Below, piece after piece: positions 19,901 through 37,429 of a stretch of 64,000 bases of DNA (position 1 is its first letter; every line of letters begins with the position of its first letter). A program made the translations under genes and the position numbers. The notes under the pieces are model-generated. The model had not been told where the DNA came from and did no database searches. It worked only from the letters and a program-made list of their open reading frames with translations. This DNA comes from a virus (taxonomy: Duplodnaviria > Heunggongvirae > Uroviricota > Caudoviricetes), in the IMG/VR virus record IMGVR_UViG_3300026521_000088, positions 32,551 through 96,550 of that record. One strand, 5' to 3'.

Positions 19901-21136
19901 ATGAGTATGTTAGATAAAATTGGTAATCCAGTAGGTTTTAAGATTATGAGAGCTATGTTAGTAATTCCAGAACAATATAGAAACATTGCAACAGCTAACG
20001 GACTTAAAAATGTGTATCTATTTATAGGTGAGTTATTAGGTTATAAGAATGGAACTGTTCAAGGTAAAATTGAGTTTGGTAGAGAAGCATACTTTAACAG
20101 AACTTTAATTGAAGATATAGAGTTAGATGACTTATATGAGAATATATGGTTAGAAAGACTTTATGAAGATATTGATAGAGTTTTAAATGTAAGAGGAAAC
20201 TATCAGAAAGTTCTAACTTTAAGAAAGTATGAATTAGGTACTATGACTTTAGAAGAATGTGCTAAAGTTATTGAGACATTTGAATATAGAAAATGGTCTG
20301 TACCTATAGAGATAGATGTGTCTGCTAGTGTATTAGCAATCATAGGACTTCTATTAGGGCATAAACCATTTATGAAAAGAACTAATATGATTGGTAACAC
20401 TATTCAAGATGCTTGGAAACATGATGTAGTAACTAACAGAGTACAATTCAAAAGTATTATGAGAATAATTTATGGTTCGTCTATGCCAACTAGCCAAATG
20501 TGGTTAGAGGATGATATTCAGTATACAACTGAAGAGTTACAAGCATTTAGCCAAGAGTTAAAAGATGGTGAGTTAGCTGTAGCTGCTAAATTCAGAGACT
20601 TTCTGATTAAGAATGCTAATATGAAAGAAGAGATGAATATAGTAGTAGACAAAGAAGAGTTTACAATCTACTGCAACAAATTCAGAAATGTAGGTGAGAA
20701 GACTACAAAGTATGATGTATATAATTCAGCTACAAATTCTATCAGAACAATTCAGAATACAAGTACTAAAAAAGTACCAGATTTAAAGAGATTTGCTGTA
20801 AGTACTGTGACTACACTCATTCACAATTTAGATTCACAATGTATGAATAACACAGTAGAAGCAGTAATAGATAAATTTGGATGGGTTATAGACATTCATG
20901 ATGCAATTATAGTTTGTCCAGAAGTTGTAGATTATGCTAGAGATATATACTGTAGTGGTACAGATTCTGATAAACCGAGTTTAGAAAGAATCTATAGAGA
21001 AAGAAATAGTATCCTATCTAAGTATTTTACAAGTATTGGTATTAGACCAAGTAAAATAAAAGAGTGGGGTGAAGTTATGAGTAAAGTAGATAAATTTGAA
21101 GGAGAGTTTAGATGTAACAGAATTGTACTAAAATAA
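19901..21136 (+). CDS. C-terminal (palm/fingers) fragment of split T7-like single-subunit RNA polymerase
   Basis: Begins ...DKIGNPVGFKIMRAML (cf. T7 FNPQGNDMTKGLL); motif A IDVSASVLAII (cf. T7 FDGSCSGIQHF), motif B NRVQFKSIMRIIYGSS (cf. T7 RSVTKRSVMTLAYGSK), motif C IDIHDAIIV (cf. T7 LIHDSFGT). Own SD (aaagggaag) before the ATG. Confidence 0.85.
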   Translation: MSMLDKIGNPVGFKIMRAMLVIPEQYRNIATANGLKNVYLFIGELLGYKNGTVQGKIEFGREAYFNRTLIEDIELDDLYENIWLERLYEDIDRVLNVRGNYQKVLTLRKYELGTMTLEECAKVIETFEYRKWSVPIEIDVSASVLAIIGLLLGHKPFMKRTNMIGNTIQDAWKHDVVTNRVQFKSIMRIIYGSSMPTSQMWLEDDIQYTTEELQAFSQELKDGELAVAAKFRDFLIKNANMKEEMNIVVDKEEFTIYCNKFRNVGEKTTKYDVYNSATNSIRTIQNTSTKKVPDLKRFAVSTVTTLIHNLDSQCMNNTVEAVIDKFGWVIDIHDAIIVCPEVVDYARDIYCSGTDSDKPSLERIYRERNSILSKYFTSIGIRPSKIKEWGEVMSKVDKFEGEFRCNRIVLK

Positions 21137-21139
21137 AGA

Positions 21140-21194
21140 CTTAAGTAGGTGACCTGTATAGGTTACTTGCTTAAGTTATTTTTTTTTTTTTTTT
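21140..21194 (+). terminator. rho-independent terminator after the RNAP gene
   Basis: Imperfect hairpin (cttaagtaggtgacc ... ggttacttgcttaag) followed by a 16-nt T run (21179-21194); a second T13 run at 21265-21277. Confidence 0.6.
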
Positions 21195-22745
21195 GATTTT
21201 AATGAACTAACTTTTTAAGAAGCCAAGTAATAACTAAAGTATCTTTTATAAGGTATTTTAGTTATTTTTTTTTTTTAAATTAATAAACATAGTGGATAGT
21301 ATTTATTAAGATATTAGATATTTATTACTTTTTATTATAAGAAAAAACTTATTGATAAAGAGAGTAAGTAAAATAGATACTAAATAAAAAGGATATGTAA
21401 TAATACAACTGACAAAAAAACTATCAAATACATTACTTGTAGAAAGTTTGTGTGGAGATGGTAATAATATAACTTTACTATGGGTTAAACCTGCTAACTT
21501 ATTTACTACACCACACGATGAACTATTAAATATTAATAGTATGTTATTATTAAATTTAGAAGCATTAATATATAATAAATAAAAGGATATATATGATTCA
21601 ATTAATGAAATTTCAAAATAAAGATTCAAATAATGCAATTAGTAGGAGTAATATAGGCTACTGTAATTATATAACTTCATTGTGGTTTATGGTTATTCTT
21701 CCAGATATTAAATCTATTAATGCTTCTAAAAGAATGTTAGTACATCTAGATGGGTTAATAATGGATAATATAAATGAAAAGGTATATATATATGACACAA
21801 ATACTAAAGACTAAAGGTGGAACAAGTACAAGAATTCAAATTACTAGAACAACTACACCTATATGTGTAACATCATTATGGTATGCATCTCAAACTTTAT
21901 TTAGTAAAAATAGGTTTGATGGTAACATTAGACTACTGATAGATTTAGAAAGATTAGTAATAAAAACTTATAAAGGTGTACTTAATGATTCAATTATTAG
22001 AAAGATATAAAAATGTATCTTATGGGTTAGTTTCATATAATAGATATTTTTCAAGAGTATCTATTATTATAACAAAATTTTCTAGATTTAATGCTAATAA
22101 TACTCTTATAGTATGTTTAAATGATATAGATGTATATGCTAATTTAAAGGATAAAAATGATTAACTTAATTAGATATAACAGTGGGGTTATAGCATACGG
22201 TAATTATTACGATAAACATATAACTTTTTTATGTATAGTCGGTATATGGGAAATAAGTATAAATAAAAATTTGTTAAAAAATTTAGATGAACTAATGCTA
22301 ATAAAATAAGGATTTCTATGTTACAAATAATGAAGATAAAAAATAATGTAAGATTAAATTGGTTAGGTTATAGCTTATATTGTATAACAGATTTACCATA
22401 TTTATCAAATATACAGTTAATTAACACACCTTATGGTAGTAATAATAGGGGTTTATCAACACTTATTAATATGTATACTTTTAAAACATGTAAGGATTAA
22501 AAAATTATGACTCAAGTACTTAAAAGACATGTTACAGATTATAAGTTACATTATTCTAGTATTTTCATAGTAAATAATCATATTTTATCAAAATACTGGT
22601 TTTTCTTAACTGATTGTAGAAAAATAAATCAAAATATATTAGTTAAGTTAGGTTGTAGCAATATAAAAATTTAAGGATATATTAGAAAATCTATTAATAT
22701 TTAGATTTGCTAAATAAATAAGATATATAAAATAAAGGAATTAAA

Positions 22746-23090
22746 ATGACAACAGAGCAGTATATTAGAGAAAAGAATAAATTAGTTTATAAAGCTACAG
22801 GTATGGTGTTAGTACCAGAAGATCAAATTATTGATATGGGGTATAAAGATACTTTTAGAGCTACAGAACATTTAGATAAGTTGAGTTGTCCTTATTGTCT
22901 TTATTATTTTGATAATGACTGTAAAGGTTGTATTATGTATGAAAAAGGTAATGGTTGTTTAGACGGATATGGTTCATACGAGCGTATAGTTGAATATCTA
23001 GAAAATACGGAATGCTTAAATAGTGATTATGATGTTATTCCAGGATTATATGAATTAGGTGTGAAATATAAAGAAAGTAACGAAAGGTAA
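22746..23090 (+). CDS. Cys-rich small protein (possible zinc-binding)
   Basis: CPYCLYYFDNDCKGC and further Cys pairs; good SD. Confidence 0.5.
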   Translation: MTTEQYIREKNKLVYKATGMVLVPEDQIIDMGYKDTFRATEHLDKLSCPYCLYYFDNDCKGCIMYEKGNGCLDGYGSYERIVEYLENTECLNSDYDVIPGLYELGVKYKESNER

Positions 23091-23093
23091 AAA

Positions 23094-23651
23094 ATGTATA
23101 AATTTAATAGGATAGAGACTAAAGTATTAGAAGCTTTAGCTAAATTAGATAGATGGAGTATTGTAGGAGCTAAAGCTCTATCTTATTATGGTGTACATAG
23201 ATTTACTAAAGATACTGATATTTTATGTCATACAGAAGTAGCTAAAAGTATACTAGAAATATTTAAACAACAAGGGTTTAATATAACCTATTGTGATATA
23301 TCTCAAGTAAATGCTGTAAAAGATGGTGTAGAGTTTGATATTCTTATTACTTCTGCACCAGAATATAGTAATGCTTTAACTAAGCAAAAAGGTACATACT
23401 ACACTACTTGTAGTGGTTTATTAGATATGTACTTATTAAGTGATAAAGAGCAGAATCAATTTGATGCTGTTAATCTATTACAGAGTAATAGTAATTGTAA
23501 ACCTAGTGAAGAAGTAGTTAGTATAGAACTGGGTAGATACCAATATCTTTTAGAGAAATCTAAAGAAGATATTAAGTATTTCAAACCTAGAGCATTATCT
23601 GATGAATTTAACCTAGAAGAGTTATTACTAGAGTTAGATGATATTGAATAA
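23094..23651 (+). CDS. nucleotidyltransferase-fold protein, AbiEii/DUF1814-like
   Basis: VGAKALSYYGVHRFTKDTDILCH matches the G-[GA]-x-A-L-x(4)-G-x-x-R-x-[ST]-x-D-[IL]-D signature of AbiEii-type (pol-beta superfamily) nucleotidyltransferases. Confidence 0.5.
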   Translation: MYKFNRIETKVLEALAKLDRWSIVGAKALSYYGVHRFTKDTDILCHTEVAKSILEIFKQQGFNITYCDISQVNAVKDGVEFDILITSAPEYSNALTKQKGTYYTTCSGLLDMYLLSDKEQNQFDAVNLLQSNSNCKPSEEVVSIELGRYQYLLEKSKEDIKYFKPRALSDEFNLEELLLELDDIE

Positions 23652-23667
23652 ATTTAAAGGATAAAAA

Positions 23668-24258
23668 ATGAAGAAAATGACAACATTATTTAAAAAAACA
23701 GATGATCAGTCTAAAGTTATTGATGAACTTAGAGAAGAGAATAGATGGGTTTTAGAAAATTCTACAGCATATAGAAAATGGGATGGTACAGCTTGTGCTA
23801 TTATTAATGGAAAATTATATAAAAGATATGATGCTAAAATCAATAAAAAAACAGGTAAAAGAAAAATACCACCAGCTAATTCTATTGCTTGTCAAGAACC
23901 AGATGAAATAACAGGGCATCAACCATATTGGACTCCAGTATTAGATGAAAATAAAAGTGATAAGAGAATGTTAGATGCATTTAATAAAATTGTAGATACA
24001 AAAATTTTAAGTAAATACCCTTCAAAGTATGATGGAACTTACGAGTTTTGTGGACCTAAAGTAAATGGTAATCCAGAACAATTAAAAGAACATGTACTTA
24101 TACCACATAAAGAAGAAAAACTAGATATAGTTGATTATAGTTTTGCAGGGTTAAAACAATACTTAACAGATATTAATATTGAAGGTATTGTATTTTGGAA
24201 TAAAAATAATGATAAAAAATGTAAGATTAGAAAAACAGATTTTAATATTAAAAGATAG
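23668..24258 (+). CDS. small covalent nucleotidyltransferase (ATP-dependent RNA/DNA ligase-like, KxDG)
   Basis: Motif I RKWDGTACAI (KxDG), motif IV-like EGIVFW, motif V-like KCKIRK; 196 aa, so a minimal ligase-like domain. Confidence 0.5.
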   Translation: MKKMTTLFKKTDDQSKVIDELREENRWVLENSTAYRKWDGTACAIINGKLYKRYDAKINKKTGKRKIPPANSIACQEPDEITGHQPYWTPVLDENKSDKRMLDAFNKIVDTKILSKYPSKYDGTYEFCGPKVNGNPEQLKEHVLIPHKEEKLDIVDYSFAGLKQYLTDINIEGIVFWNKNNDKKCKIRKTDFNIKR

Positions 24259-24341
24259 AATCTTAAATATTATAAAAATTAGTAGGTATTTATAATAGGT
24301 TCATTTAATCTAATATAAAATATTAGATCAAAGGAGTAGTA

Positions 24342-24536
24342 ATGAAAAAGTTAGTAATTAATGTAATACTTATTACTTCAGTATTTAGTAGTACTGATAT
24401 AGTAACTAACGAATGTGCTATAGCTCTAACAGAAGCTACTAAAATACATGCTAAATATATGGATGGTAATGTATCTATAACAGAAGATTATAATACTTAT
24501 AATTTAGCATTAAACATATGTAATATAAAAGGATAA
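24342..24536 (+). CDS. small protein with N-terminal hydrophobic segment
   Basis: 64-aa ORF, SD aaaggag. Confidence 0.4.
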   Translation: MKKLVINVILITSVFSSTDIVTNECAIALTEATKIHAKYMDGNVSITEDYNTYNLALNICNIKG

Positions 24537-24539
24537 ATA

Positions 24540-24749
24540 ATGAAAATATATCAGTATATATTATATCCATATGAAGAATATGATGATGAATTGGGAGAAT
24601 GGGTCACAAACCACGACAATCCAAATAACTGGATAACAGAAGAAAGATTACTACAAGACAATGATGTAAAAAGTATTGAAGAAGTAGACTTGTCAATGTA
24701 CAATGTACAAGAAATAAGCAACAAGGAATATAATGATACAATTAAGTAA
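24540..24749 (+). CDS. small highly acidic protein
   Basis: 69 aa, strongly Asp/Glu/Tyr rich. Confidence 0.45.
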   Translation: MKIYQYILYPYEEYDDELGEWVTNHDNPNNWITEERLLQDNDVKSIEEVDLSMYNVQEISNKEYNDTIK

Positions 24750-24927
24750 AATACCTGAACCTTTTAAGTCTAAATTAGAAGCTACTTTAGGTAATAAGGA
24801 TTACTGTATAATGGAGAGTAGTTATATTTTCCGTTATGAAGATATTAGCACAGATTTTGGTAAATGGCTTATCTCAAAAGGTGAAGAAGAATTTGCTGGT
24901 GAGATTGAGTATAAATTAACAATTTAA
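24733..24927 (+). CDS. small protein, MIQ-start family member
   Basis: Starts ATGATACAA (MIQ) like the paralog clusters; overlaps upstream ORF. Confidence 0.4.
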   Translation: MIQLSKIPEPFKSKLEATLGNKDYCIMESSYIFRYEDISTDFGKWLISKGEEEFAGEIEYKLTI

Positions 24928-24945
24928 ATTTAAAAAGGACAAATA

Positions 24946-25338
24946 ATGGAAAAATTATATATAAAAGCAACAAGAAATAAGTAGAGATTTCAAACAACAA
25001 GAGAACATATATCAGTAGAAGAGTTATGGGATTTACCACTTAAATCAAGAACAAACTTTGATTTAGATACAGTAGCAAAAACTGTAAATAAACAAGTAAA
25101 AAAAACTGAAGAAGAATCTTTTGTTACAACTACAGCAAAAGATACAGAACCAAAAGAGAAACTTGAATTTGTTAAATATATCATTTCAGTCAAGCTACAA
25201 GAAGCTAAAGACAAACAAGATGCACAAGCAAAAGCTGGAAGAAAACAACAAATTCTAGCGTTATTAGCTGAAAAAGAAGTAGAAGGACTTAAAGCAAAAT
25301 CAAAAGAAGAGTTGCTTAAAGAGTTAGAATCTTTATAA
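24946..25338 (+). CDS. 130-codon reading frame interrupted by a single in-frame TAG at codon 13 (24982-24984): pseudogene or amber read-through/recoded gene
   Basis: ATG with AAAAGGA SD; after the TAG the same frame stays open for 117 more codons with no ATG and ends in a coiled-coil-like KE-rich tail; only a spurious minus ORF is called across it. Confidence 0.4.
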
Positions 25339-25428
25339 GTAACTTAAATTCATATCCGTTACCATTTTACTACTATGTTTTAAAATGGTAATAATATAAA
25401 TTAAAGTAGATTACTAAGGAGTTAGTAA

Positions 25429-25767
25429 ATGCAAGGTTTATGGAAAGATAAAACTAAGCACTATTTAAAGTCTAAGTTAAAATACTATATAAGAGATAAT
25501 AAAATTTTATATGGTAAAGATTTAGATATTGTACATAATAATGATGTATGTGTTAAAGTTTTAAATAGTATTAAACAAGATAGCTTTGTATGTATAAAAA
25601 ATAAAATAGTTAAATTATCTTCTAATCTAATATATAGACATTCTAAAAAATGTATTTATGACTTAGAGTATGAAGATATTTTTATAAATAGTACATTTAA
25701 TAAAATAGGTAGTAAAAATATATACTCTGATAAAGAGTTAATAGAATTTAAATATAAGGATAAATGA
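25429..25767 (+). CDS. hypothetical protein
   Basis: 112-aa Lys-rich ORF with AAGGAG SD. Confidence 0.5.
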   Translation: MQGLWKDKTKHYLKSKLKYYIRDNKILYGKDLDIVHNNDVCVKVLNSIKQDSFVCIKNKIVKLSSNLIYRHSKKCIYDLEYEDIFINSTFNKIGSKNIYSDKELIEFKYKDK

Positions 25768-25876
25768 TGTGTAATATCAGAACAAGAAAAAATGATGTAA
25801 AACTAACAATCAAACAAGCACAACAAGCACTGAAGATAGCAAAGTCTTTAAATAAAGAGTTATATATACTAAGATA

Positions 25877-25896
25877 TTAACCTTATTTAAGGTTAA
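25877..25896 (+). terminator. hairpin (ttaacctta-tt-taaggttaa) upstream of tRNA cluster
   Basis: Perfect 9-bp inverted repeat seen in sequence; weak T tract after it. Confidence 0.35.
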
Positions 25897-25933
25897 TCTT
25901 GTATAATTAGATTTATATAACATATCAATATAT

Positions 25934-26019
25934 GCTGCTATGGTGGAAAGGTAGACACTGAAGGCTTAAAACCTTCTGACTGAAAAGTCGTCCCAGTTCG
26001 AATCTGGGTAGCAGTACCA
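25934..26019 (+). tRNA. tRNA-Leu (anticodon TAA), type II with long variable arm, CCA encoded
   Basis: Acceptor GCTGCTA/TAGCAGT, anticodon arm GAAGG-CTTAAAA-CCTTC, variable stem-loop, T arm CCCAG-TTCGAAT-CTGGG, then ACCA. Confidence 0.8.
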
Positions 26020-26021
26020 AA

Positions 26022-26095
26022 TCTCCAATAGCTTGAAGGTCAAGCAAATGACTGTTAATCATTAGTTGTAGGTTCGATTCCTACTTGGAGAGCCA
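26022..26095 (+). tRNA. tRNA-Asn (anticodon GTT), CCA encoded
   Basis: Acceptor TCTCCAA/TTGGAGA, D arm GCTT-GAAGGTC-AAGC, anticodon arm AATGA-CTGTTAA-TCATT, T arm GTAGG-TTCGATT-CCTAC, then GCCA. Confidence 0.8.
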
Positions 26096-26164
26096 ATATA
26101 TAATTATAATAACTAACTATTAGCTATTAAATATAGGTTAAAACTTATATAGTTAACCATTTAT

Positions 26165-26240
26165 GTTGTACTGCTACCTGGGGTAGATATAGTAATATAT
26201 AGATAGTAATATCTTATAGGTTCGAATCCTATGTACAACA
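26165..26240 (+). other. tRNA-like element / degenerate tRNA (acceptor stem and T arm intact, anticodon region replaced by an ATAGTAATAT tandem duplication)
   Basis: GTTGTAC...GTACAAC acceptor pairing and ATAGG-TTCGAAT-CCTAT T arm are perfect, but no canonical anticodon stem can be drawn; 10-nt direct repeat inside. Confidence 0.3.
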
Positions 26241-26667
26241 CCTCCTACAAATAAGTAGTAAAGTTTATAGTAGAAAATTTTTAACATACCTATTTCCTTT
26301 TAAAGTATGTATTTTCATTTTCCTTCCCTTTTTAAATTTTAACTGACAAACTATAATTCTACTATAAACCTACTACTTATTATTTTTAATAAACCAATAT
26401 TTATATTGATTTATTAAAAATAATAATATACATATATACAAGGATTTACTATGTTACAAGTACTTAATCATAAGTATACATTTGCAAGAACAACTACTAA
26501 AGGATATTATGTAAAATATTATATATTTTCTTTTATACATTTTAGAAAACAACTACATCTACTACATATACGCAATTATAATAGTATAAAAACATTAGAT
26601 GAGACTCTATTATCTTTAATATAGACTATAAAATATTATAAATAATTATAATAAATAAAGGAAAATA

Positions 26668-26850
26668 ATGATACAGATAATTGAAAGTACTAAAATACAT
26701 ACTGATACTCTTAGTAGGTTAGACACTAGTCATATTGTGAAAAACATAGTTGATTTTTATATTAGACAAATGCCATATAACAATAATGGAATTATACTAT
26801 TACAACTTACTGCATTAATAGTAGAGGTTACAGATGATACAGAATGTTAA
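26668..26850 (+). CDS. small protein, MIQ paralog family
   Basis: AAATAAAGGAAAATA-ATGATACAG start; ~60 aa; shares MIQ...DFY...LL pattern with neighbours. Confidence 0.5.
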   Translation: MIQIIESTKIHTDTLSRLDTSHIVKNIVDFYIRQMPYNNNGIILLQLTALIVEVTDDTEC

Positions 26851-27031
26851 TACAATATATTCTAAAATGTATGATCCTAGAAACAAGTATAAATTACATT
26901 ATAGTCAGGATACTGAGGATTTTTTTATTAATTGGTACTTATCTTCACAACTTTTAGATAGTAATAGTAGTATTTTATATAAACTAACAGAATATCTACT
27001 AGACTATACACAACAAAATAAAGGAAAATAA
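26834..27031 (+). CDS. small protein, MIQ paralog family
   Basis: MIQNVN... with ...TEDFFINWYL core; overlaps neighbours. Confidence 0.5.
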   Translation: MIQNVNTIYSKMYDPRNKYKLHYSQDTEDFFINWYLSSQLLDSNSSILYKLTEYLLDYTQQNKGK

Positions 27032-27219
27032 TGATACAAAATATAGCTGCTAATACTAAACTTATTCATAAATTTATATCTAAACCACATATTATAAAAA
27101 GTACCTCTGATAATGATTTTTATATACCCAATCTATTATCTGGTACACATACAAGAATACTAGCAGGTATTGTTATGTTAGTAATAAAGGGTGCTGATGT
27201 TGCAAAATATAAGACATAA
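27031..27219 (+). CDS. small protein, MIQ paralog family
   Basis: AAATAAAGGAAAATA-ATGATACAA start; ...NDFYIPNLL core. Confidence 0.5.
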   Translation: MIQNIAANTKLIHKFISKPHIIKSTSDNDFYIPNLLSGTHTRILAGIVMLVIKGADVAKYKT

Positions 27220-27388
27220 TATTAGTAAGAACTTAATAGGTGTAAGATTAGTACTTGATCAAGATAAAAATATTTATATTACTAAAAATATTTTTTATAC
27301 TCAAGTATATATAAAAAATAAAATAAGTAAAGTATGTACTAAACTTTTGAGAAATACAGTCTACCTACTTTATAAAAATACTAAATAA
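27191..27388 (+). CDS. small basic protein
   Basis: 65-aa ORF in the same tight array. Confidence 0.35.
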   Translation: MLMLQNIRHNISKNLIGVRLVLDQDKNIYITKNIFYTQVYIKNKISKVCTKLLRNTVYLLYKNTK

Positions 27389-27406
27389 ACAAATAAAGGA
27401 AAAAAT

Positions 27407-28633
27407 ATGAAAAATGTACTAGATTTAATAAAAGAAGATATGATTTCACCAAAATATAAAAATGCTGATGATGTAATGGATATGGTTATTACTCAAGAGA
27501 CAGATACACTGTTAAATCCAGCATATAATAAAGAGTATAGTAAATTCTTAGATACTCTTAAAGAAGACTTTAAAAAAGACATTAAATTGAACTTTAGTGA
27601 GTCATATGGTCTAGATACACCATTAGAGTTTATAGGAACAGGTGGTGTAGGAGCAAACCTATTATATATGTTAGAACACCATAGAAATTTCACTGAAGAT
27701 AATAATGGTGAAAAATTCTATATACCAAACTCATTCTTTGAATTTGACCATTGGGACTTTAGCAATTTAGCTAGAATACCATTTATACCAGAAAAATATC
27801 GTAAAGGTGAAGATATTGTAGCTAAAGAACTTGCTAACCATGATGCTAAAGAAGAGCAATTTCTAGACCCATTATTTATTGAGGCTAGCCATAATAAGCT
27901 ATCGAAAATAATTCCTTGTGGAGCTATGGATTTAGAAACTAGAAAAGTAATGACTACTGCTAAAATACCATACATCACAGTTACACACAAAGATGATAAG
28001 CTACAAATTAAATTATGTCCTACACCTGTAGAACATGAGTCTTTAATGGCTGAAACATATGGTATGATTGATGTAAACTTCTTGTTACCAGCAGTACATC
28101 TAGCTTCATTCTATATCTCAGATATTATGAATGCTGCAAATACTGATAAAACAGAAGGTTACAATATATCTGCAGTTAAAGCTTATGAGGATATTAAAGT
28201 CTTCAAAGCTGAAATGTTGAAGTATAGAGAGTTAACTATAGCTAATGAAGCTAATAGTAACAATGATATTTTACAAAGTTTTATCTTGTATTGTGCAGAT
28301 ATTGTAAAAGATAGAACTAACTATAATTTAGAAGATACAGATGAGTTACAAAAATTTAGAGTAGAAATTTACACTGAAGTAACTAGAAGACTTTCTAATG
28401 CTGAAGACTTAGAAGCAATGGTCAATAGTTCAAAAGAATCATTTAATCATCTAGGTGGTAAAGAGTATGTATGTACAAGAGCCAAAGAATTGCTAGATCT
28501 AGACACCTTATGGAGTGGTATGGAAGATAGAGTATTACTAGAAATTACACCAGATGATGTAAGAGACTTTCTAGAAGTCAAAAATACAAAGGAAGCTTAT
28601 GAACTTGTTAGAAGACTTTCATCCAATAATTAA
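27407..28633 (+). CDS. E1-like adenylyltransferase (ThiF/MoeB/HesA family)
   Basis: Rossmann nucleotide-binding motif LEFIGTGGVGANLLYML followed by FEFDHWDFSNLARI (cf. ThiF/MoeB VLVVGAGGLGS ... LIDFDVVELSNLNRQ). Confidence 0.7.
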   Translation: MKNVLDLIKEDMISPKYKNADDVMDMVITQETDTLLNPAYNKEYSKFLDTLKEDFKKDIKLNFSESYGLDTPLEFIGTGGVGANLLYMLEHHRNFTEDNNGEKFYIPNSFFEFDHWDFSNLARIPFIPEKYRKGEDIVAKELANHDAKEEQFLDPLFIEASHNKLSKIIPCGAMDLETRKVMTTAKIPYITVTHKDDKLQIKLCPTPVEHESLMAETYGMIDVNFLLPAVHLASFYISDIMNAANTDKTEGYNISAVKAYEDIKVFKAEMLKYRELTIANEANSNNDILQSFILYCADIVKDRTNYNLEDTDELQKFRVEIYTEVTRRLSNAEDLEAMVNSSKESFNHLGGKEYVCTRAKELLDLDTLWSGMEDRVLLEITPDDVRDFLEVKNTKEAYELVRRLSSNN

Positions 28634-29222
28634 AGAATTAGTAGTATATAAAGATATTACTAAATTCTTTAAAAAAACTAGAGAGATTAGAATAAATTAC
28701 ATAACTGCTATATGTGATAATATAGCAGTACCTATTTATTACTATTCAGAGGAACAATGGGGTTCTAGAGCTTATATTGATTATACTATGAAACTGGATA
28801 CAATTAGAGATTTAGATAAATCTATTATAGATTGTAAAATAAAAGAGTTGCAAGAGTTAGGGTTAAATATAACAAGTATTTCATTAACAGATAATCTACA
28901 CACTCATCCAGTAGGTTGTACTAGTTTTTCACCTACAGATTATAATGGTTGTTTAAAACCTGACTATACAGAGAATAGCTTAGGTACTAATATGTTATTT
29001 TCATTTACTGGAGAGCTTTATAAAACTATTGTGAGAGAACAAATAAATGGTGAGTATAAGTATTATAAAGTTAAACAAATAGAAGTAGATGACTTTATAC
29101 CACATATAGATATTAAAGAGGAGCATTTTAAAACTAAAGCATTAACATACCTTACTGTAAATTTAATGAAACAAAAGATAAAGAAAAAACTACATAAATC
29201 AAAAATTAAGCATAAAAGATAA
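28599..29222 (+). CDS. JAB/JAMM (MPN+) metalloprotease-fold protein
   Basis: Exact JAMM motif H-x-H-x(7)-S-x(2)-D: HTHPVGCTSFSPTD, with an upstream Glu (SEEQW); overlaps the E1-like gene by 35 nt. Confidence 0.7.
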   Translation: MNLLEDFHPIIKELVVYKDITKFFKKTREIRINYITAICDNIAVPIYYYSEEQWGSRAYIDYTMKLDTIRDLDKSIIDCKIKELQELGLNITSISLTDNLHTHPVGCTSFSPTDYNGCLKPDYTENSLGTNMLFSFTGELYKTIVREQINGEYKYYKVKQIEVDDFIPHIDIKEEHFKTKALTYLTVNLMKQKIKKKLHKSKIKHKR

Positions 29223-29302
29223 GTGCTTCAAGCTACTATTATTTAGTAGTTTTGAGCAACTATTTTAGTTAGCAAAAAAAAAAAATACTATAAGGAAATA
29301 CA

Positions 29303-29851
29303 ATGGCAACATTAAGAGAGAGAGCAGAAGCAAAACTAAGAGAGCAAAACAAAATGGATACAACTACAACAGAAGAGGTAACAAAATTGTTTGAACAAGC
29401 TCAAGAGAGCGTTGTAAGTACTGCACAGGAAGTAAAAAAATCAGATAGTGGAGCAGATATGTCTATAGCCCAAAATGAAGTAGAGGCTATTTATGATGGT
29501 AAAGATACAGTTGAATACCCTAAAGGTATTACAGATGTGCTAAATGATGAAGATGTTAAACCAACTATAGCTATAAAAGCTATCAAAGCTTATGTAAAAG
29601 CTACTAGAAAAGCTTATAGTAAGGATAAAGTACAAGTAAAAGGTTTTAGTTTTAAAACTAGTGCATCTGAGAAGATTATGGCTATTGCTGATGAGGTAGA
29701 TAGAATCAATGAAAAACTAGAAGATTTTGACCAAAGCAATAGAGAAGTAGGTTCAAAAATCTATAACTTAGAAAAAGAAGCAGAAAGACTTGTAGCTACA
29801 AGTGCAGTATTACTTGGTCTATTGGTAAAATCTAGTAATAAATTAATCTAG
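29303..29851 (+). CDS. hypothetical coiled-coil protein with hydrophobic C-terminus
   Basis: 182 aa, no Cys; A12 tract immediately upstream (29274-29285). Confidence 0.5.
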   Translation: MATLRERAEAKLREQNKMDTTTTEEVTKLFEQAQESVVSTAQEVKKSDSGADMSIAQNEVEAIYDGKDTVEYPKGITDVLNDEDVKPTIAIKAIKAYVKATRKAYSKDKVQVKGFSFKTSASEKIMAIADEVDRINEKLEDFDQSNREVGSKIYNLEKEAERLVATSAVLLGLLVKSSNKLI

Positions 29852-29884
29852 TTACTAGCTAGTGCCTATATTTATATAGGTACT

Positions 29885-31003
29885 ATGGTATTAACAATTA
29901 AAATAAAGGGGTTAAAAATGACAAGAAATAAACAGAACGAAGCATTTATTAGAAAAGTGTTACTAGCTAAAGCTATTGAAAAAGTTGTAAAACAAGTTGA
30001 TTTTGATACAGATGTTAATGTAGAGCATTTCTCTGAAACCTACGGTATTTATGTATCTAAATTTGATAGAGATTATGTAAAATCTTTAATTGATAAAAAA
30101 GAAAATTTATCTCAAATTAAAGATATGAAAGTTACAGGTTACGATGTACAAGGATTGATTGGTCTAGCTAATTTATTAGATACTATGTCAGATAATCCTG
30201 ATTTTTATGGTTGTATTGTTCTTATTGAAAAAGCTAATCAAAAAATTCCATATAACCCATTGTCTGAGTCTTTTATGAAAAAACTAACATCTGGTGTTAT
30301 TAAAATCAATGATGATACAAAACTAAAAGTTTTTATTTATTCTATCAACGGTGAAGTAGATAACGATGTAGCTTTACAAACTGTAGATATGTTATCTAAA
30401 ATTTCTGTAATTAATGCAGAGACTGTTCAAATTGAAAAACCAGATGATGAAGAAGAGGTTAAAACTTTATGGTTAAAAGCACCTGTAGCTTGGGATACTA
30501 ACAACAGCCAGAACTCGGTTGTTAATAATGGTACATTAGAAGACATTCACTTAGATCAATTACATAAATCTATTACATTTACTGCTTCAAATAGAATTGA
30601 TTATAAAGATTTGTTAGCTTATGATATTGATATGCTATTAAACAGTGAAATTGAAGACAATTCTAATTCCATTATTAAGAGAATGTTAGATAACAATTGG
30701 ATGATTGAATTATCTGTTATTGATATTGGTGGTATGATTGTACCAGCATATGGTTTTTTTGAACATAAAGATAATGCTATGTATGATATTTTATGTGCTA
30801 CAAGACACCCAAATATTTCAAATGACGGGTCTAACTACTGTACTGGTGCTAACGGAAGAACTACCCTGAAGGGTATTTCAGAATTAAGTTATGGTAACCT
30901 AACATCACCACTCAATAGTAACATTTGGTCAAAAAATAGCTTATCTATAGCTAAAGGGTTTGTAGCTTATTATACTGAGAAATTTTTAAATCTAGAAGTA
31001 TAA
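29885..31003 (+). CDS. hypothetical protein
   Basis: 372-aa ORF, no recognisable motif. Confidence 0.5.
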   Translation: MVLTIKIKGLKMTRNKQNEAFIRKVLLAKAIEKVVKQVDFDTDVNVEHFSETYGIYVSKFDRDYVKSLIDKKENLSQIKDMKVTGYDVQGLIGLANLLDTMSDNPDFYGCIVLIEKANQKIPYNPLSESFMKKLTSGVIKINDDTKLKVFIYSINGEVDNDVALQTVDMLSKISVINAETVQIEKPDDEEEVKTLWLKAPVAWDTNNSQNSVVNNGTLEDIHLDQLHKSITFTASNRIDYKDLLAYDIDMLLNSEIEDNSNSIIKRMLDNNWMIELSVIDIGGMIVPAYGFFEHKDNAMYDILCATRHPNISNDGSNYCTGANGRTTLKGISELSYGNLTSPLNSNIWSKNSLSIAKGFVAYYTEKFLNLEV

Positions 31004-31012
31004 AGGTAACTT

Positions 31013-31258
31013 ATGATAACAACACAATATTTGTATGATTGTAACCCAGAGGATTTTAAAGATTTACCTTATAAGGATGCTATAAAATATAAGTATAACC
31101 AAGCTAAGATGCTTGGTTATAGACTATACAAAGAGTTGATACTTAAAAATGATAACACTAAAGAGAGTTATTTAAATAATACTGAACTAAGAAAAAGATT
31201 GTATATGGTAAATAAAGCTGAAAAACATAATAGAATCCTACTGGATGAATTAAATTAA
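31013..31258 (+). CDS. hypothetical small protein
   Basis: 81-aa ORF. Confidence 0.45.
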   Translation: MITTQYLYDCNPEDFKDLPYKDAIKYKYNQAKMLGYRLYKELILKNDNTKESYLNNTELRKRLYMVNKAEKHNRILLDELN

Positions 31259-31267
31259 AGAATTAGA

Positions 31268-31477
31268 ATGAAATATAATAAAGTAAGTATTATAACCGAG
31301 ATAGCAGTAGTATGTATGTACCTTGTGATAATAATTGGTATAGGTTATGGGTATATTAATAATATTATCCAAAAAGTACATTCAGAACTTGAGCCATTAA
31401 CGACTCAAGTTGTTATAGGTATAGGTGGAATATTTGTACCACCTATTGGTGTTCTTATGGGGCTTTTTGTCTGGTAA
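31268..31477 (+). CDS. small 2-TM membrane protein (possible partner of the SPFH protein)
   Basis: 69 aa, two hydrophobic helices. Confidence 0.45.
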   Translation: MKYNKVSIITEIAVVCMYLVIIIGIGYGYINNIIQKVHSELEPLTTQVVIGIGGIFVPPIGVLMGLFVW

Positions 31478-31519
31478 TAGCTAAATAAATTCAAAAAAAA
31501 AAAAAATAAAAGATAAACA

Positions 31520-32488
31520 ATGGAAATTTTTAAGAAAAATGAATATGAGCAAGTTATAGGTGTAAATACAAAATTCATTATTGGTAGTATAGTAAGTATT
31601 ATTGTAATTGTTGCAGCACTATTAAGTTTTTATACTATAAATAGTGGGTATGTAGGTGTACTATCTACAATGGGTAAATACCATAAAAATGAAATAAACC
31701 CTGGACTTAACTTTAAGATACCTTATATGCAAAGTGTAACAGTGTTTAATACTAAAGCGCATGTGGTGAATTATAAAGGTTCAAAAGATCTACCTGATAC
31801 TGAAGACATTATCAATAAACCTTATATTGTGGTTCTTGATAAGAACAATCAAAATATTGTGATTGAGTTATCAGTACAGTATCAACCAGTTGCATCTGAA
31901 GCATCTGAGATTCTTACACAATATGGTAAAACATACTTTTATAAAGCTATTAACCCTATCGTAAGAGAGGTTGTAAGAGATGTAATTGGAAAATATGAAG
32001 CAGAAACTATTGCTTTAAATAGAACAGCTATAGCTACAAAACTTAAAGATACACTTATCAATAGATATAAAAATAATCATCAATTCTCTATCTTAGAAGT
32101 ATCTCTAAGAAACATTAGATTACCTAAACTTATTAAAGATAAGATTAATCAAGTACAAGTAGCTGCACAAGAAGAGCAAAGGTTAGCTAGAGTTGCTAAA
32201 CAAGCTCAAAGACATCAAGAGATTAAGACTATTGAAGCTAATACAAGAATGATTGAAATTACTACTAAAGCTAAAGCTCAAGCAGAAAAGAAAAAGATTG
32301 AAGCAGATGCTAAAGCTTATCAAATTCTAACAGAAGCTAATGCTAAATCAAAAGCTAACGAAGAGATTGCTAAATCTATAACACCAACATTGATTCAATA
32401 TAATCAAATTAACAAATGGTCTGGTATATATCCATCTACATATATGGGTAGTGGTATGAATAATGATGTAATTTTAAATATGAAATAA
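31520..32488 (+). CDS. SPFH/band-7 (stomatin/prohibitin/HflKC-like) membrane protein
   Basis: N-terminal TM, then SGYVGVLSTMGKY...PGLNFKIPYMQSVTVFNTKAH (canonical SPFH start) and a long coiled-coil QEEQRLARVAKQAQRHQEIKTIEA... tail. Confidence 0.75.
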   Translation: MEIFKKNEYEQVIGVNTKFIIGSIVSIIVIVAALLSFYTINSGYVGVLSTMGKYHKNEINPGLNFKIPYMQSVTVFNTKAHVVNYKGSKDLPDTEDIINKPYIVVLDKNNQNIVIELSVQYQPVASEASEILTQYGKTYFYKAINPIVREVVRDVIGKYEAETIALNRTAIATKLKDTLINRYKNNHQFSILEVSLRNIRLPKLIKDKINQVQVAAQEEQRLARVAKQAQRHQEIKTIEANTRMIEITTKAKAQAEKKKIEADAKAYQILTEANAKSKANEEIAKSITPTLIQYNQINKWSGIYPSTYMGSGMNNDVILNMK

Positions 32489-32948
32489 ATAGGACTTCAG
32501 TCCTATATATTTTTTAAAGTATTATATATAAATATTTTTAAAAATATACAGGAGTTAGGTAATGGTGCAGGTAGTAAAGAAATATAAGAAAGATTGTTAT
32601 ATTTTGGATTATTCAAATTTATGTATGTCTACAGATAGTTTAGATGTAAACCTATGTTTACTGTATGAGATAGATGAGTTAACATATATACCATAATATA
32701 ATATAAGTTATAAATATTTTATACTAATGTAATGACTTATTATTAAAAACAATATAAATCTAGATAAGAGGGGTATAAATGATACAATTAGTTAATATGT
32801 ATTATACAGAAATAGAAGGTAGTCCTAAAATAAAAGTACATAAATGGAATTACTTATATGCTGGTTCATCATCATTAAATAACAGTATTAATACAGAGTT
32901 GTTATATAGGATAAATTACTTAAAACTACATACATAAAGGTAAGCATT

Positions 32949-33161
32949 ATGATTCAACTAATAAATTTAACAACAGAAGATTTAACTTGTGATGATTTTA
33001 CATATAAAGCTTATATAGATAAACTACATAGGTCTTTAATACATACAAAGTATAAAGATTTTTATACTAATGCTCCATTACTAACACTAAACAATAATAT
33101 ACATTATGAAATTTTATATTTATTTTGTGCTAAATTAACAAATTCTATAGAAAAGTATTAA
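32949..33161 (+). CDS. small protein, MIQ paralog family
   Basis: MIQLINL...KDFYTNAPLL; a further unlisted member (MIQLVNMYY..., ~52 aa) starts at 32779. Confidence 0.45.
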   Translation: MIQLINLTTEDLTCDDFTYKAYIDKLHRSLIHTKYKDFYTNAPLLTLNNNIHYEILYLFCAKLTNSIEKY

Positions 33162-33257
33162 AAATGGTAACATTTATAGCTAATGTAAATAAATTAGGTA
33201 TATAAATACTAATGCATATATACTATATAGTATGTTTTTTAAATACAAAGGAAAATT

Positions 33258-33443
33258 ATGGTAAATAATATAAAACTAAGTACTAATAAATCATATGTAC
33301 ATTTATATTCGGTTAAAAAAAGACTAATAATATATTTACCAAAATTTACCTTATCTGGTATAAATAGGGTAATTTTATTAGAGATAGGTGTATTATTTAA
33401 TAACTTAGAGGGTACAAATGATACAAGTAATAAAATTATATAG
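33258..33443 (+). CDS. small hypothetical protein
   Basis: 61-aa ORF with AAAGGAAAAT SD. Confidence 0.35.
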   Translation: MVNNIKLSTNKSYVHLYSVKKRLIIYLPKFTLSGINRVILLEIGVLFNNLEGTNDTSNKII

Positions 33444-33593
33444 AAATATTGATAAAAAAGAAATAGATATAGGCTTTAATACTTATATTGGTATACTATC
33501 TTATGTTATATTCCCTATATCAACAAATACAAATATAATAAATTATAACTTATTAACAGATAAGTTTATTTATTATACTTATAAAGGTAATTT

Positions 33594-33785
33594 ATGATTC
33601 AACAAACATATCATATTAATAAGTCATATTCATCAAAACTTGTTAAATATAGTTATTATAGTTATTATAATAATAATATAAACATATCTTATTATATTTA
33701 TAAAGAAGTAATTAAAACAGAGTGTAATATAAATGATAATATCCTATTTTTTATAGGTATGTTACTTCGTAAAGTTACACATTAA
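33594..33785 (+). CDS. small protein, MIQ-start, Tyr/Asn-rich
   Basis: MIQQTY...; low complexity, so uncertain. Confidence 0.3.
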   Translation: MIQQTYHINKSYSSKLVKYSYYSYYNNNINISYYIYKEVIKTECNINDNILFFIGMLLRKVTH

Positions 33786-34242
33786 ATTAAAGTATATATA
33801 ACTTTAATCAATTATAAGGAGGTTAGTATGAAACTGATGACATAAACATACATATATATCTATATATATAAGGTAGATTACACACTTTATACATTACATT
33901 TGGTAGACTTTTATGTCTACCGAAAATATATAATAAAGCTTACAAAGGTAGGTTTTTAATATATTTTAAAGAATTAAGATGAATTACATTTTTAGTTATA
34001 TACTAATAACTTTGTTTATAGTCTTAGTATATATGTACAATAATCATATAAATACTATTAGTATGTATAGATATGAAGTTGTATATGATATTAATGAAGT
34101 AGCATATACTAATAATTCTGTAGATGTACATAATTGTATATGTACTACTGAAGGAAATATTTGTGGTAATTTTAGGGTATATCATAACCCATTTTTCAAG
34201 TAAAACATACAACTAATTAAAGTCTGAAATAAAGGATAAATA

Positions 34243-34482
34243 ATGATACTTATAGACAGAATATATATAGAAGATCGATTTATAGAACAGGAATTTAATG
34301 TGATAACTAATTGGAAATTTATGAGGTATAAATCATTAAGTTATATGTATATTAAATATAAACGATTACTGTATATGTACTATAAATATAATAAAAATTA
34401 TAATATAGATTTCGATAGACTTATACAAGTTAATGGCGTAAGTTTTTATAATGTATATAGGGTAACAAATGAAAATAGGTAA
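34243..34482 (+). CDS. small hypothetical protein
   Basis: AAATAAAGGATAAATA-ATGATAC start motif. Confidence 0.35.
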   Translation: MILIDRIYIEDRFIEQEFNVITNWKFMRYKSLSYMYIKYKRLLYMYYKYNKNYNIDFDRLIQVNGVSFYNVYRVTNENR

Positions 34483-34819
34483 TATTGTAGGAGTAATGGA
34501 AATAGGGAATGGTTTTACCACTGAGTGTATAAAAGGTATAGATGGTGCGTACCATTTTACAACATCTCGAGATGGTGTTTTTGTACACCATTTTTATAAC
34601 TATATGACATTAGATAATGCTGTAAGTTACCTGGAAAAACGCTTGTTCTTAAAAGATATTGTAATTTTACAATTTAATGATGGTAGTTATACTACTACTA
34701 AATTAAAAAATAAAATGATTTTCCCAGAAAGGTTTATGAGAAGTAAACCTATAAGGTATTGGGTATTTGATGATATTACTAAAGAAAATATGGAAAATAT
34801 TAGAGTTATATTAAACTAA
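34469..34819 (+). CDS. hypothetical protein
   Basis: 116-aa ORF. Confidence 0.45.
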   Translation: MKIGNIVGVMEIGNGFTTECIKGIDGAYHFTTSRDGVFVHHFYNYMTLDNAVSYLEKRLFLKDIVILQFNDGSYTTTKLKNKMIFPERFMRSKPIRYWVFDDITKENMENIRVILN

Positions 34820-34830
34820 AAGTAGATAAG

Positions 34831-35322
34831 ATAATTTACTTCACAAGTGACTTACATATACATCATAAAAATATATGTAAATATAGAACAAAATTTAAAA
34901 CAACAGAAGAACACGACAACTATTGGATAGATAAAATACTTAGTTTAGGTAAAATAGATATTTTATATATATTAGGGGATTTTATATTTGATACAAATGA
35001 GGAAACATTTAATAAAACAATAAATAAATTAAAGAATATCAAATGTAGAATTAAGTTGATAATGGGTAATCATGACTCCTTAAAGTTATATAAAATAAAT
35101 AATCCTAAAATAGAGATGCAATTACCACTATTTACATATAAAGATTTTTGGTTATCTCATTGTCCTATACACCCACAAAAGATGAGAACCAGATAGGGTA
35201 ACATTCATGGACATTTACATGATGTTATTTTAGATGATAAATTATATTTTGATGTATCCCCAGAAAAGCATAACTATAAATTTGTGTCATTGAATGATAT
35301 AAAGGAATATTATAATAAATAG
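34831..35322 (+). pseudogene. calcineurin-like metallophosphoesterase lacking a canonical start codon and carrying one in-frame TAG (35194-35196)
   Basis: Frame reads KIIYFTSDLHIHH (motif I D-x-H) ... ILGDFIFD (GD-x-x-D) ... LIMGNHD (GNH[DE]) ... TAG ... GNIHGHLHD (GH-x-H); no ATG/GTG/TTG at the domain start; frame is -1 relative to the upstream 34469..34819 ORF. Confidence 0.5.
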
Positions 35323-35355
35323 ATCAAAATATATTAAAATAAAAAAGGAAGTAAA

Positions 35356-35973: not shown

Positions 35974-35990
35974 GATAATAGGAGAAAATT

Positions 35991-36623: not shown

Positions 36624-36703
36624 TGTGGTAGGTAATATATATGAAATAGTATGTATTTTAGCGTGTTTATTAAATACTAGCAGATAAATATTAAGGAAAA
36701 GTA

Positions 36704-37009
36704 ATGTTAAATGAAGACAAGGTAGAGGAATTAGTAGAAGCAATAGAGAAAAGTTTTAACTGTGTTACTGGGGTTGATTTTTGGTCAGTTGTACAAAAAG
36801 AAAAAGGTAATAAAACTGAGGTGCAAATAGGTATAATTTATGTTGATGCTAACGAAGATGATGTCTATAAAATCGACAATAACTCACATATTTTAGATAC
36901 TATACTTAAGAATATCAATATAAATGTTGTAAGTAAACCAATATTTGATATAGGAGACACATACCCAGATGGTTCGTCTTATTATAGTCTTAGATTTCTT
37001 ATAGAATAA
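36704..37009 (+). CDS. hypothetical protein
   Basis: 101-aa ORF. Confidence 0.45.
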   Translation: MLNEDKVEELVEAIEKSFNCVTGVDFWSVVQKEKGNKTEVQIGIIYVDANEDDVYKIDNNSHILDTILKNININVVSKPIFDIGDTYPDGSSYYSLRFLIE

Positions 37010-37087
37010 AATTAAATATAAAACAAAAAACTATTAAAAAGATCTTAATGATAAATTAATCAATTTAAAAGATATTAAGGAGATATT

Positions 37088-37411: not shown

Positions 37412-37429
37412 TAAACATAAGGAAAACAA

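What the first reader, a model, noticed from the sequence alone, without database searches (positions are those of the whole stretch)
24946..25338. Intact-looking 130-codon gene with a single in-frame TAG at codon 13
The ATG has a good SD. The frame then continues 117 codons after the TAG (24982-24984) with no ATG downstream, so the distal part cannot be expressed on its own. This is either a very recent nonsense mutation, or TAG is read through or recoded, at least occasionally. A second gene (34831-35322) shows the same pattern.
Basis: seen in the sequence. Interest (0 to 1): 0.6.

Follow-up and report, generated by a model that had tools for sequence, protein, structure and literature searches.

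The report
Two amber-interrupted accessory phage genes
Two non-essential genes of an AT-rich phage each carry one premature TAG stop codon; the evidence favours ordinary, recent knock-out mutations, not a changed genetic code.

Summary
Gene 1 (24946-25338) has a Shine-Dalgarno (SD) site, ATG, TAG at codon 13 and 117 further open codons with no usable restart. It matches phage family phrog_2018 end to end, so the first 12 codons belong to the gene.

Recoding is not supported:
- Ten related metagenome contigs have TGG (Trp) at that codon, so TAG is one G-to-A change.
- Only two of about 90 genes have an internal TAG.
- TAG ends about 11 genes, as often as TGA, including gene 2's own stop and the gene just upstream of gene 1.
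- No CUA-anticodon tRNA is in the window or in related contigs.

Context points to loss of function. Every relative with an intact gene 1 has a 677-aa partner gene (phrog_1735) immediately upstream. In this phage two small unrelated ORFs occupy that position. Gene 2 (a metallophosphoesterase, TAG at codon 122) has a sister strain with an independent in-frame TGA three codons upstream.

A second assembly carries both TAGs, so they are not errors of this one contig. dN/dS of 0.15-0.25 shows the mutations are recent, or that TAG is leaky. Low-level amber suppression by a host tRNA, or a phage tRNA outside the window, is not excluded (about 0.2).

The parts
24946..25338 (+). Gene 1: phrog_2018 family member of 130 codons, function unknown, interrupted by TAG at codon 13
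   Evidence: phrog_2018, E 9e-37, full length; relatives at 74-90% identity. An AF2 model of relative P0001 has pLDDT 84 and no PDB fold match.
24982..24984 (+). In-frame TAG of gene 1; the orthologous codon is TGG (Trp) in all close relatives
   Evidence: DNA alignment and pattern scan of JGI metagenomes. L009-L014 and L016-L019 all have TGG. L020 has TAG.
24935..24939 (+). Shine-Dalgarno AAGGA, 6 nt before the ATG of gene 1
   Evidence: GGA is present in L009 and L011 and shifted 2 nt upstream in L012.
24540..24927 (+). Two small ORFs (69 and 64 aa) at the position where relatives carry the 677-aa phrog_1735 (DUF8224) partner gene
   Evidence: homology to L012 ends at the partner's start codon and resumes at gene 1's SD; no homologue in the window; the 64-aa ORF is not a remnant of it; partner adjacent in 12 of 12 loci with an intact gene 1 and enough upstream sequence.
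34831..35322 (+). Gene 2: calcineurin-like metallophosphoesterase (phrog_547, PF00149) with ATA at the start position, an internal TAG at codon 122, and TAG as its own terminator (35320-35322)
35194..35196 (+). In-frame TAG of gene 2, at a variable position (K/Y/L/I/T/H/M/V/A/D in homologues; AAA in the two closest)
   Evidence: The same TAG is in L021.
34831..34833 (+). ATA at the position of the ATG start of gene 2; shared with strain L022, whose ORF is otherwise intact
   Evidence: dN/dS window vs L022 = 0.15.
25934..26095 (+). tRNA-Leu(UAA) and tRNA-Asn(GUU): the only tRNAs in the window, neither able to read UAG
26165..26242 (+). tRNA-like element without an anticodon loop, so not a suppressor; also the junction where strain variants diverge

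Best explanation
Both TAGs are ordinary premature stop codons, that is, loss-of-function alleles of two accessory genes in an uncultivated AT-rich (about 26% GC) tailed phage that uses the standard code.

Gene 1 (phrog_2018) normally sits directly behind a 677-aa partner gene (phrog_1735). In this lineage the partner was swapped out by cassette replacement. After that, a TGG-to-TAG transition at codon 13 was tolerated or favoured.

Gene 2, a metallophosphoesterase, is dispensable in this phage group. Nonsense alleles of it segregate in the population: TAG in this strain and TGA in a sister strain.

Shown: the single-step origin, the missing partner, normal use of TAG as a stop, the absence of a suppressor tRNA in the window, and the parallel nonsense allele. 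Inferred: that no full-length protein is made, and that loss of the partner is why gene 1 became dispensable.
For: 1. Relatives at 74-90% identity all have TGG where the window has TAG. G-to-A at TGG is an ordinary route to a stop: the window holds 184 TGG codons, and about 26% of transition-accessible nonsense targets give TAG.
2. Only 2 of about 90 genes carry an internal TAG, and none carries an internal TGA or TAA.
3. Crude stop usage is TAA 67, TAG 13, TGA 10. Two of the 13 TAG calls are fragments of the two interrupted genes, which leaves about 11, level with TGA. TAG terminates the RNA ligase gene just upstream of gene 1, the gene just downstream of gene 2, and gene 2 itself.
4. No tRNA with a CUA anticodon is in the window or in ten of the related contigs, two of which (L020, L021) are the same strain. 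The tRNA-like element has no anticodon loop.
5. phrog_1735 lies immediately upstream of phrog_2018 in 12 of 12 loci with an intact gene and enough upstream sequence, and in GenBank phages of several families. The only loci lacking it there are the window and L020, the TAG carriers.
6. Sister strain L015 has an in-frame TGA at a nearly invariant Arg of the phosphoesterase, while an otherwise identical protein (P0243) has Arg.
Against: 1. Both interruptions are TAG, although only about 21-26% of one-step nonsense targets give TAG, so two of two has p of about 0.05-0.07.
2. dN/dS of both genes (0.15-0.25) is like that of intact neighbours, and neither gene has a frameshift or a second stop. This fits very recent inactivation, but it fits continued function through read-through equally well.
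3. The TAG allele of gene 1 occurs on two strain backgrounds that differ downstream of 26235, so it has survived at least one recombination event.
4. The window is only part of the genome. A suppressor tRNA or a relocated phrog_1735 gene could lie outside it, and the host is unknown.
5. The link between partner loss and the TAG rests on one evolutionary event.
Confidence: 0.7

Rival explanations
1. Leaky amber suppression. A suppressor tRNA of the host, or one encoded by the phage outside the window, reads UAG at low efficiency. Both genes then still yield some full-length protein, and TAG acts as an expression-lowering or conditional codon while still ending most translation.
For: Both interruptions are TAG. 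Both genes are otherwise intact, with dN/dS of 0.15-0.25. The gene 1 TAG persists on two strain backgrounds. One TAG sits at a hydrophobic/aromatic site (W/Y/L/I/M) and the other at a freely variable site, so Trp, Tyr or Leu would suit both, and Gln or Lys only the variable site. Most TAG-terminated genes have a second in-frame stop within 2-8 codons, although that is expected anyway at 26% GC.
Against: No CUA tRNA is in the window or in related contigs. TAG is not avoided as a terminator relative to TGA. The sister strain's lesion in gene 2 is TGA, not TAG, which argues for plain inactivation of that gene. Gene 1's partner gene is missing from its usual position. Gene 1 has no downstream RNA structure (z = 0.13). 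Gene 2 has only a marginal hairpin, and it includes the stop codon itself (z = -1.96).
Confidence: 0.2
2. Sequencing or assembly artefact, or a minority variant fixed in the consensus.
For: Read support cannot be inspected here. The sample holds several co-existing strains (L011, L012, L015, L016, L020-L022), which can confuse consensus calling.
Against: The same TAGs appear in separately assembled MEGAHIT contigs L020 and L021, and L020 has a different downstream sequence. The surrounding sequence has no indels or frame problems.
Confidence: 0.06
3. Genome-wide or block-wise reassignment of TAG to an amino acid, as in the code-15-like recoding of crAss-like and Lak phages.
For: Only the two in-frame TAGs themselves.
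Against: About 11 genes, including genes within a few hundred bases of both sites and gene 2 itself, end in TAG. There are 2 internal TAGs in roughly 18,000 codons. No suppressor tRNA was found, and Rfam found nothing beyond the two tRNAs at gathering threshold.
Confidence: 0.02

Closest known systems
Nonsense-mutated (pseudogenised) accessory genes in phage genomes
   Same: A single premature stop in a non-essential gene, intact orthologues in close relatives, and no restart codon. Independent nonsense alleles of the same gene occur in sister strains.
   Different: Decay is minimal. There are no frameshifts and no second stop, and dN/dS is still low, so the event is very recent. For gene 1 it coincides with replacement of a conserved neighbouring gene.
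Classical amber (sus) mutants of phages grown on suppressor hosts (T4, lambda; own knowledge)
   Same: A TGG-to-TAG transition inside an otherwise intact gene. The phenotype depends on whether the host carries a suppressor tRNA.
   Different: These are natural metagenomic alleles, not products of mutagenesis. The genes appear to be accessory, so no suppressor is needed for viability.
Stop-codon-recoded phages: TAG read as Gln in crAss-like and Lak phages, code 15, block-wise use (abstracts of bioRxiv 10.1101/2022.06.29.495998 and PMC10879173, listed)
   Same: In-frame TAG in conserved phage genes, and an AT-rich phage that carries tRNA genes.
   Different: Recoded phages have many in-frame TAGs and encode a suppressor tRNA(CUA). 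Here there are two in-frame TAGs, normal terminator use of TAG in the same region, and only tRNA-Leu(UAA) and tRNA-Asn(GUU) in the window.
Phage escape from abortive-infection or sensor defences by knocking out the sensed accessory gene (own knowledge; not tested here)
   Same: Recurrent independent loss-of-function alleles in one accessory gene across co-existing strains (window TAG, L015 TGA).
   Different: No defence system or trigger relationship is known for this phosphoesterase or for phrog_2018. This is a speculative reason for the selection, not a shown one.

Membership tests
Stop-codon-recoded phage (TAG reassigned, code 15 type) | Many in-frame TAG codons in conserved genes | tested here: not met
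   2 interrupted genes among about 90.
Stop-codon-recoded phage (TAG reassigned, code 15 type) | TAG depleted or absent as a terminator in the recoded block | tested here: not met
   About 11 TAG terminators against 10 TGA. They include genes adjacent to both sites and gene 2's own stop.
Stop-codon-recoded phage (TAG reassigned, code 15 type) | Phage-encoded suppressor tRNA with anticodon CUA | tested here: not met
   ARAGORN and Rfam find only Leu(UAA) and Asn(GUU) in the window. None is in related contigs. The rest of the genome is not available.
Stop-codon-recoded phage (TAG reassigned, code 15 type) | TAG aligns consistently with one amino acid in homologues | tested here: inconclusive
   Site 1 is W in close relatives and Y/L/I/M in distant ones. 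Site 2 is K in the closest and highly variable otherwise. With n = 2, no consistent residue emerges.
phrog_2018 (gene 1) | Full-length profile match, including the N-terminal ATRxKxRF motif | tested here: met
   E 9e-37 over positions 2-132 of 132; alignments.
phrog_2018 (gene 1) | Adjacent upstream phrog_1735 (DUF8224) gene | tested here: not met
   Present in 12 of 12 other loci with enough upstream sequence. Absent at the locus and anywhere in the window.
Calcineurin-like metallophosphoesterase PF00149 / phrog_547 (gene 2) | Profile match and conserved metal-binding motifs (DxH, GD, GNHD, GHxH) | tested here: met
   PF00149 at 32.3 bits (cut-off 21.5) and phrog_547 at E 3e-44. D8, H10, G50-D51, G80-N81-H82-D83 and H127-G128-H129-x-H131 are invariant and present.
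Recent pseudogene / nonsense allele | Premature stop where intact orthologues have a sense codon, with no in-frame restart | tested here: met
Recent pseudogene / nonsense allele | Relaxed selection (dN/dS near 1, further lesions) | tested here: not met
   dN/dS is 0.15-0.25 with no further lesions. This is compatible only with very recent inactivation, or with retained function.
Translational bypass or stop-hopping (T4 gene 60 type) | Matching take-off and landing codons around the stop | tested here: not met
   AAG-TAG-AGA and AGA-TAG-GGT have no matching landing codon. The residues right after the stop (R14, F15; G-N-I-H) are conserved and must be translated.
Pyrrolysine decoding of UAG | tRNA-Pyl(CUA) and pyl genes | tested here: not met
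   No CUA tRNA is in the window. The host is unknown, so host-side Pyl machinery cannot be tested.

The most novel reading that the evidence does not exclude
The phage, or its unknown host, supplies a weak amber suppressor. TAG would then be used inside otherwise intact accessory genes to make their expression conditional or very low, while TAG still works as a terminator elsewhere. That would be a mild, gene-specific use of stop-codon read-through in a phage that otherwise uses the standard code.
Probability: 0.15. Interest if true: 0.55.

Novelty: already known. Interest (0 to 1): 0.2.

Why it matters
Scans for alternative genetic codes in phages need true negatives. Here two in-frame TAGs in conserved genes look like recoding but behave like plain nonsense alleles. 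The case shows which cheap checks separate the two: terminator usage, the orthologous codon in near relatives, a tRNA scan, and the fate of partner genes.

Two further points are of modest interest. The phrog_1735/phrog_2018 pair appears to be a functional unit, because one member is knocked out where the other is missing. The phosphoesterase is repeatedly inactivated in co-existing strains, which could reflect selection, for example escape from a host sensor. That idea is speculative.

Tried and rejected
- TAG read as Leu by the neighbouring phage tRNA-Leu. Distant homologues have L/M at site 1 and L/V at site 2, which suggested this. It was rejected because the tRNA has a normal UAA anticodon in a CUUAAAA loop, and the close relatives have W at site 1 and K at site 2.
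- The tRNA-like element 26165-26242 as an odd suppressor. Rejected: it has no 7-nt anticodon loop, no CUA, and no Rfam tRNA score.
- Loss of the ATG start in gene 2 as a second lesion proving a pseudogene. Withdrawn: strain L022 shares ATA with an intact ORF, and dN/dS is 0.15. ATA probably initiates translation.
- My guess that the region is a head module (portal, scaffold, capsid). No PHROG support; the neighbours are RNA ligase, an SPFH lipoprotein, an ATPase and a nicotinamide phosphoribosyltransferase.
- Read-through-stimulating RNA structure. None for gene 1, and only a marginal hairpin for gene 2.
- Code 4 for sister contig L015. The database translated its TGA as W. However, the codon aligns with a nearly invariant Arg, an otherwise identical protein has R, and relatives use TGA as a stop.
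- Function of gene 1 and its partner. No Pfam hit above its gathering cut-off, and no NCBIfam, PDB sequence or PDB fold match.
- Searches for the same phage. No match to a 24-kb query in GenBank phages and no close relative in IMG/VR. The genome could not be extended usefully beyond the window.

Full report
**The observation**

The window is an AT-rich (about 25-30% GC) tailed-phage sequence. Structural and packaging genes lie on the minus strand up to about 17 kb. These include tail proteins and a terminase large subunit. The rest of the window carries early, metabolic and replication genes on the plus strand.

At 24946-25338 there is an AAGGA Shine-Dalgarno (SD) site, an ATG, TAG at codon 13 (24982-24984), and 117 further sense codons ending in TAA. 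No ORF of 30 aa or more with an ATG, GTG or TTG start is listed in that frame after the TAG. The distal part therefore cannot be expressed on its own.

The complete 130-aa conceptual product matches PHROG family phrog_2018 from end to end (E 9e-37). A conserved N-terminal motif, ATRxK-[W/Y/L/I/M]-RF, spans the TAG.

The second gene (34831-35322) is a calcineurin-like metallophosphoesterase (PF00149, phrog_547). Its TAG is at codon 122 (35194-35196), directly before the GNIHGHLH metal-binding motif.

**The orthologous codons**

A search of the large protein collection returned four close relatives of gene 1 at 74-90% identity, all with Trp at position 13. Their contigs, plus three more found by a DNA pattern scan of JGI metagenomes, all read TGG. 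That makes ten loci in all. The window's TAG is thus one G-to-A transition from the ancestral codon.

For gene 2 the TAG falls on a position that varies freely among homologues: K, Y, L, I, T, H, M, V, A and D all occur. The two closest relatives have AAA there.

My first impression was that both TAGs align with Leu and might be read by the adjacent phage tRNA-Leu. It did not survive. That tRNA has an ordinary UAA anticodon, and the close relatives show W and K.

**Is TAG recoded in this genome?**

The evidence says no.

- A six-frame scan found only these two genes split by an internal TAG, and none split by TGA or TAA. Every other same-frame junction is an ordinary gene boundary followed by a start codon.
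- About 90 crude gene calls end in TAA 67 times, TAG 13 times and TGA 10 times. Two of the TAG calls are fragments of the interrupted genes, so the real figure is about 11.
- TAG is therefore used as often as TGA. It ends the RNA ligase gene just upstream of gene 1, the gene just downstream of gene 2, and gene 2 itself.
- ARAGORN and Rfam find only tRNA-Leu(UAA) and tRNA-Asn(GUU).
- A third, tRNA-like element at 26165-26242 has two GUAA-tetraloop hairpins where the anticodon and variable arms should be. It does not score as a tRNA.
- Ten of the related contigs, two of which (L020, L021) are the same strain, hold no CUA-anticodon tRNA.
- Stop-hopping is excluded. There are no matching landing codons, and the conserved residues directly after each TAG must be translated.
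- Gene 1 has no read-through-type RNA structure after its TAG. Gene 2 has a marginal hairpin that includes the stop itself (z = -1.96).

**Context of gene 1**

In three GenBank phages a gene of about 680 aa lies just upstream of the phrog_2018 gene. In the metagenomic relatives that upstream gene is a 677-aa member of phrog_1735, listed as DUF8224 in precomputed hits. The two families have almost the same distribution in GenBank phages and are adjacent wherever I compared coordinates.

A tblastn of both proteins against every locus fetched showed the pair adjacent in 12 of 12 loci that have an intact gene 1 and enough upstream sequence.

In the window, homology to relative L012 stops exactly at the partner's start codon and resumes at gene 1's SD site. 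Between these points lie two small unrelated ORFs (24540-24927), the first of which has an 87%-identical counterpart upstream of the partner gene in relative L019. No phrog_1735 homologue exists anywhere in the 64 kb.

So the only genomes that lack the partner at this locus are the ones carrying the TAG. This is a single evolutionary event, so it is suggestive and not statistical. The partner could also have moved outside the window.

**Context of gene 2**

The closest relative, L015 (88% nucleotide identity), carries an in-frame TGA at a nearly invariant Arg, three codons upstream of the window's TAG. The database had translated that TGA as Trp. Another member of the same 90% cluster, P0243, is otherwise identical and has Arg. 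L015 is therefore an independent, very recent nonsense allele of the same gene. Nonsense alleles of this phosphoesterase evidently segregate among co-existing strains, which marks the gene as dispensable.

I first counted the ATA at the start position (34831-34833; L015 has ATG) as a second lesion. However, strain L022 also has ATA with an otherwise intact ORF. The window-versus-L022 comparison gives dN/dS of 0.15 over dS of 0.41. ATA probably serves as a weak initiation codon here, so I withdrew that argument.

**Are the TAGs real, and how old are they?**

Exact-protein look-ups recovered two MEGAHIT contigs from ENA sample ERZ27262639.

- L020 is identical to window 20071-26234 apart from three T-run indels, and carries the gene 1 TAG. 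It diverges from 26235 onward, dropping to 70-81% identity further downstream.
- L021 equals window 26156-39371 at 99.96% identity. It carries the ATA start and the gene 2 TAG.

The TAGs are therefore reproduced in another assembly, and the gene 1 allele sits on two strain backgrounds.

Pairwise dN/dS is 0.17-0.20 for gene 1 and 0.15-0.25 for gene 2. Intact neighbouring genes give 0.07-0.36. Neither gene has any further lesion. So the inactivations are recent relative to the 9-12% divergence from relatives. The alternative is that the genes are still expressed by read-through.

**Weighing the explanations**

Four lines of evidence favour plain nonsense alleles (confidence about 0.7).

- The origin is one G-to-A step at a Trp codon.
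- TAG is used normally as a terminator.
- No suppressor tRNA was found.
- The partner gene is missing from its usual position, and gene 2 has a parallel TGA allele.

Several points keep leaky amber suppression alive (about 0.2).

- Both lesions are TAG. Since 21-26% of one-step nonsense targets give TAG, two of two has p of about 0.05-0.07.
- Both genes are otherwise pristine.
- The gene 1 allele has persisted through recombination.
- The rest of the genome and the host are unseen.

An artefact is unlikely (about 0.06). Genome-wide or block-wise reassignment is contradicted within the window (about 0.02).

**Function of the genes**

The function of gene 1 remains unknown. An AlphaFold2 model of the close relative P0001 has pLDDT 84. 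It shows a small N-terminal helix plus beta-hairpin domain, in which residue 13 lies just before the first strand, followed by long helices. Nothing significant was found in PDB by fold or by sequence, nor in NCBIfam; Pfam gave only two weak hits well below their gathering cut-offs. The partner protein likewise had no hit in Pfam, NCBIfam or the PDB sequence search.

**Verdict**

These are recent knock-out alleles of accessory genes, not evidence of an altered code. Interest is low (0.2). The residual novel reading, gene-specific conditional expression through weak amber suppression, has a probability of about 0.15.

Noticed in passing
window 26165-26242 (+); also L020:6092-6169 and L021 about 183-260: A tRNA-like element with a 7-bp acceptor stem, a D-like arm and a perfect T arm (GGTTCGAATCC). 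Two 5-bp hairpins with GUAA tetraloops (a 14-nt tandem duplication) replace the anticodon and variable arms. It has no Rfam tRNA score. It is conserved in three strain variants, and the variants diverge at it. L021 has tRNA-Met(CAU) upstream of it where the window has Leu and Asn.
   Followed up: partly
window 34831-34833; L022:696-698: The phosphoesterase gene has ATA where sister strain L015 has ATG. A second strain (L022) shares ATA with an intact ORF, and dN/dS is 0.15. ATA therefore seems to serve as an initiation codon in this phage group.
   Followed up: partly
L015:863-865: The sister strain's phosphoesterase has an in-frame TGA at a nearly invariant Arg, three codons from the window's TAG. 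The protein database had translated it as Trp (code 4). An otherwise identical protein (P0243) has Arg. Two independent stops within five codons of the same gene could be chance (about 4%) or could reflect selection for loss.
   Followed up: partly
window 11498-14491 (-): A 997-aa terminase large subunit. phrog_38 matches only residues 625-967, and a LAGLIDADG_3 domain lies at residues 475-529. It probably hosts an intein with a homing endonuclease.
   Followed up: partly
window 24540-24927 compared with L012:2005-4038 and L009:5501-7534: Clean cassette replacement. The 2-kb phrog_1735 gene is exchanged for two small ORFs, with breakpoints exactly at the start codon and at the next gene's SD site. 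The phrog_1735 + phrog_2018 pair is conserved across Ackermannviridae, Vequintavirinae, Bastillevirinae, phiCbK-like and marine phages, and its function is unknown.
   Followed up: partly
window 41834-42337 (-): A single 167-aa gene on the minus strand inside the long plus-strand block. Function unknown.
   Followed up: no
window 21179-21180 and 21265, compared with L020: The only differences between the window and contig L020 over 6.1 kb are T-run length differences in an intergenic gap. They may be homopolymer assembly noise or real variation.
   Followed up: no
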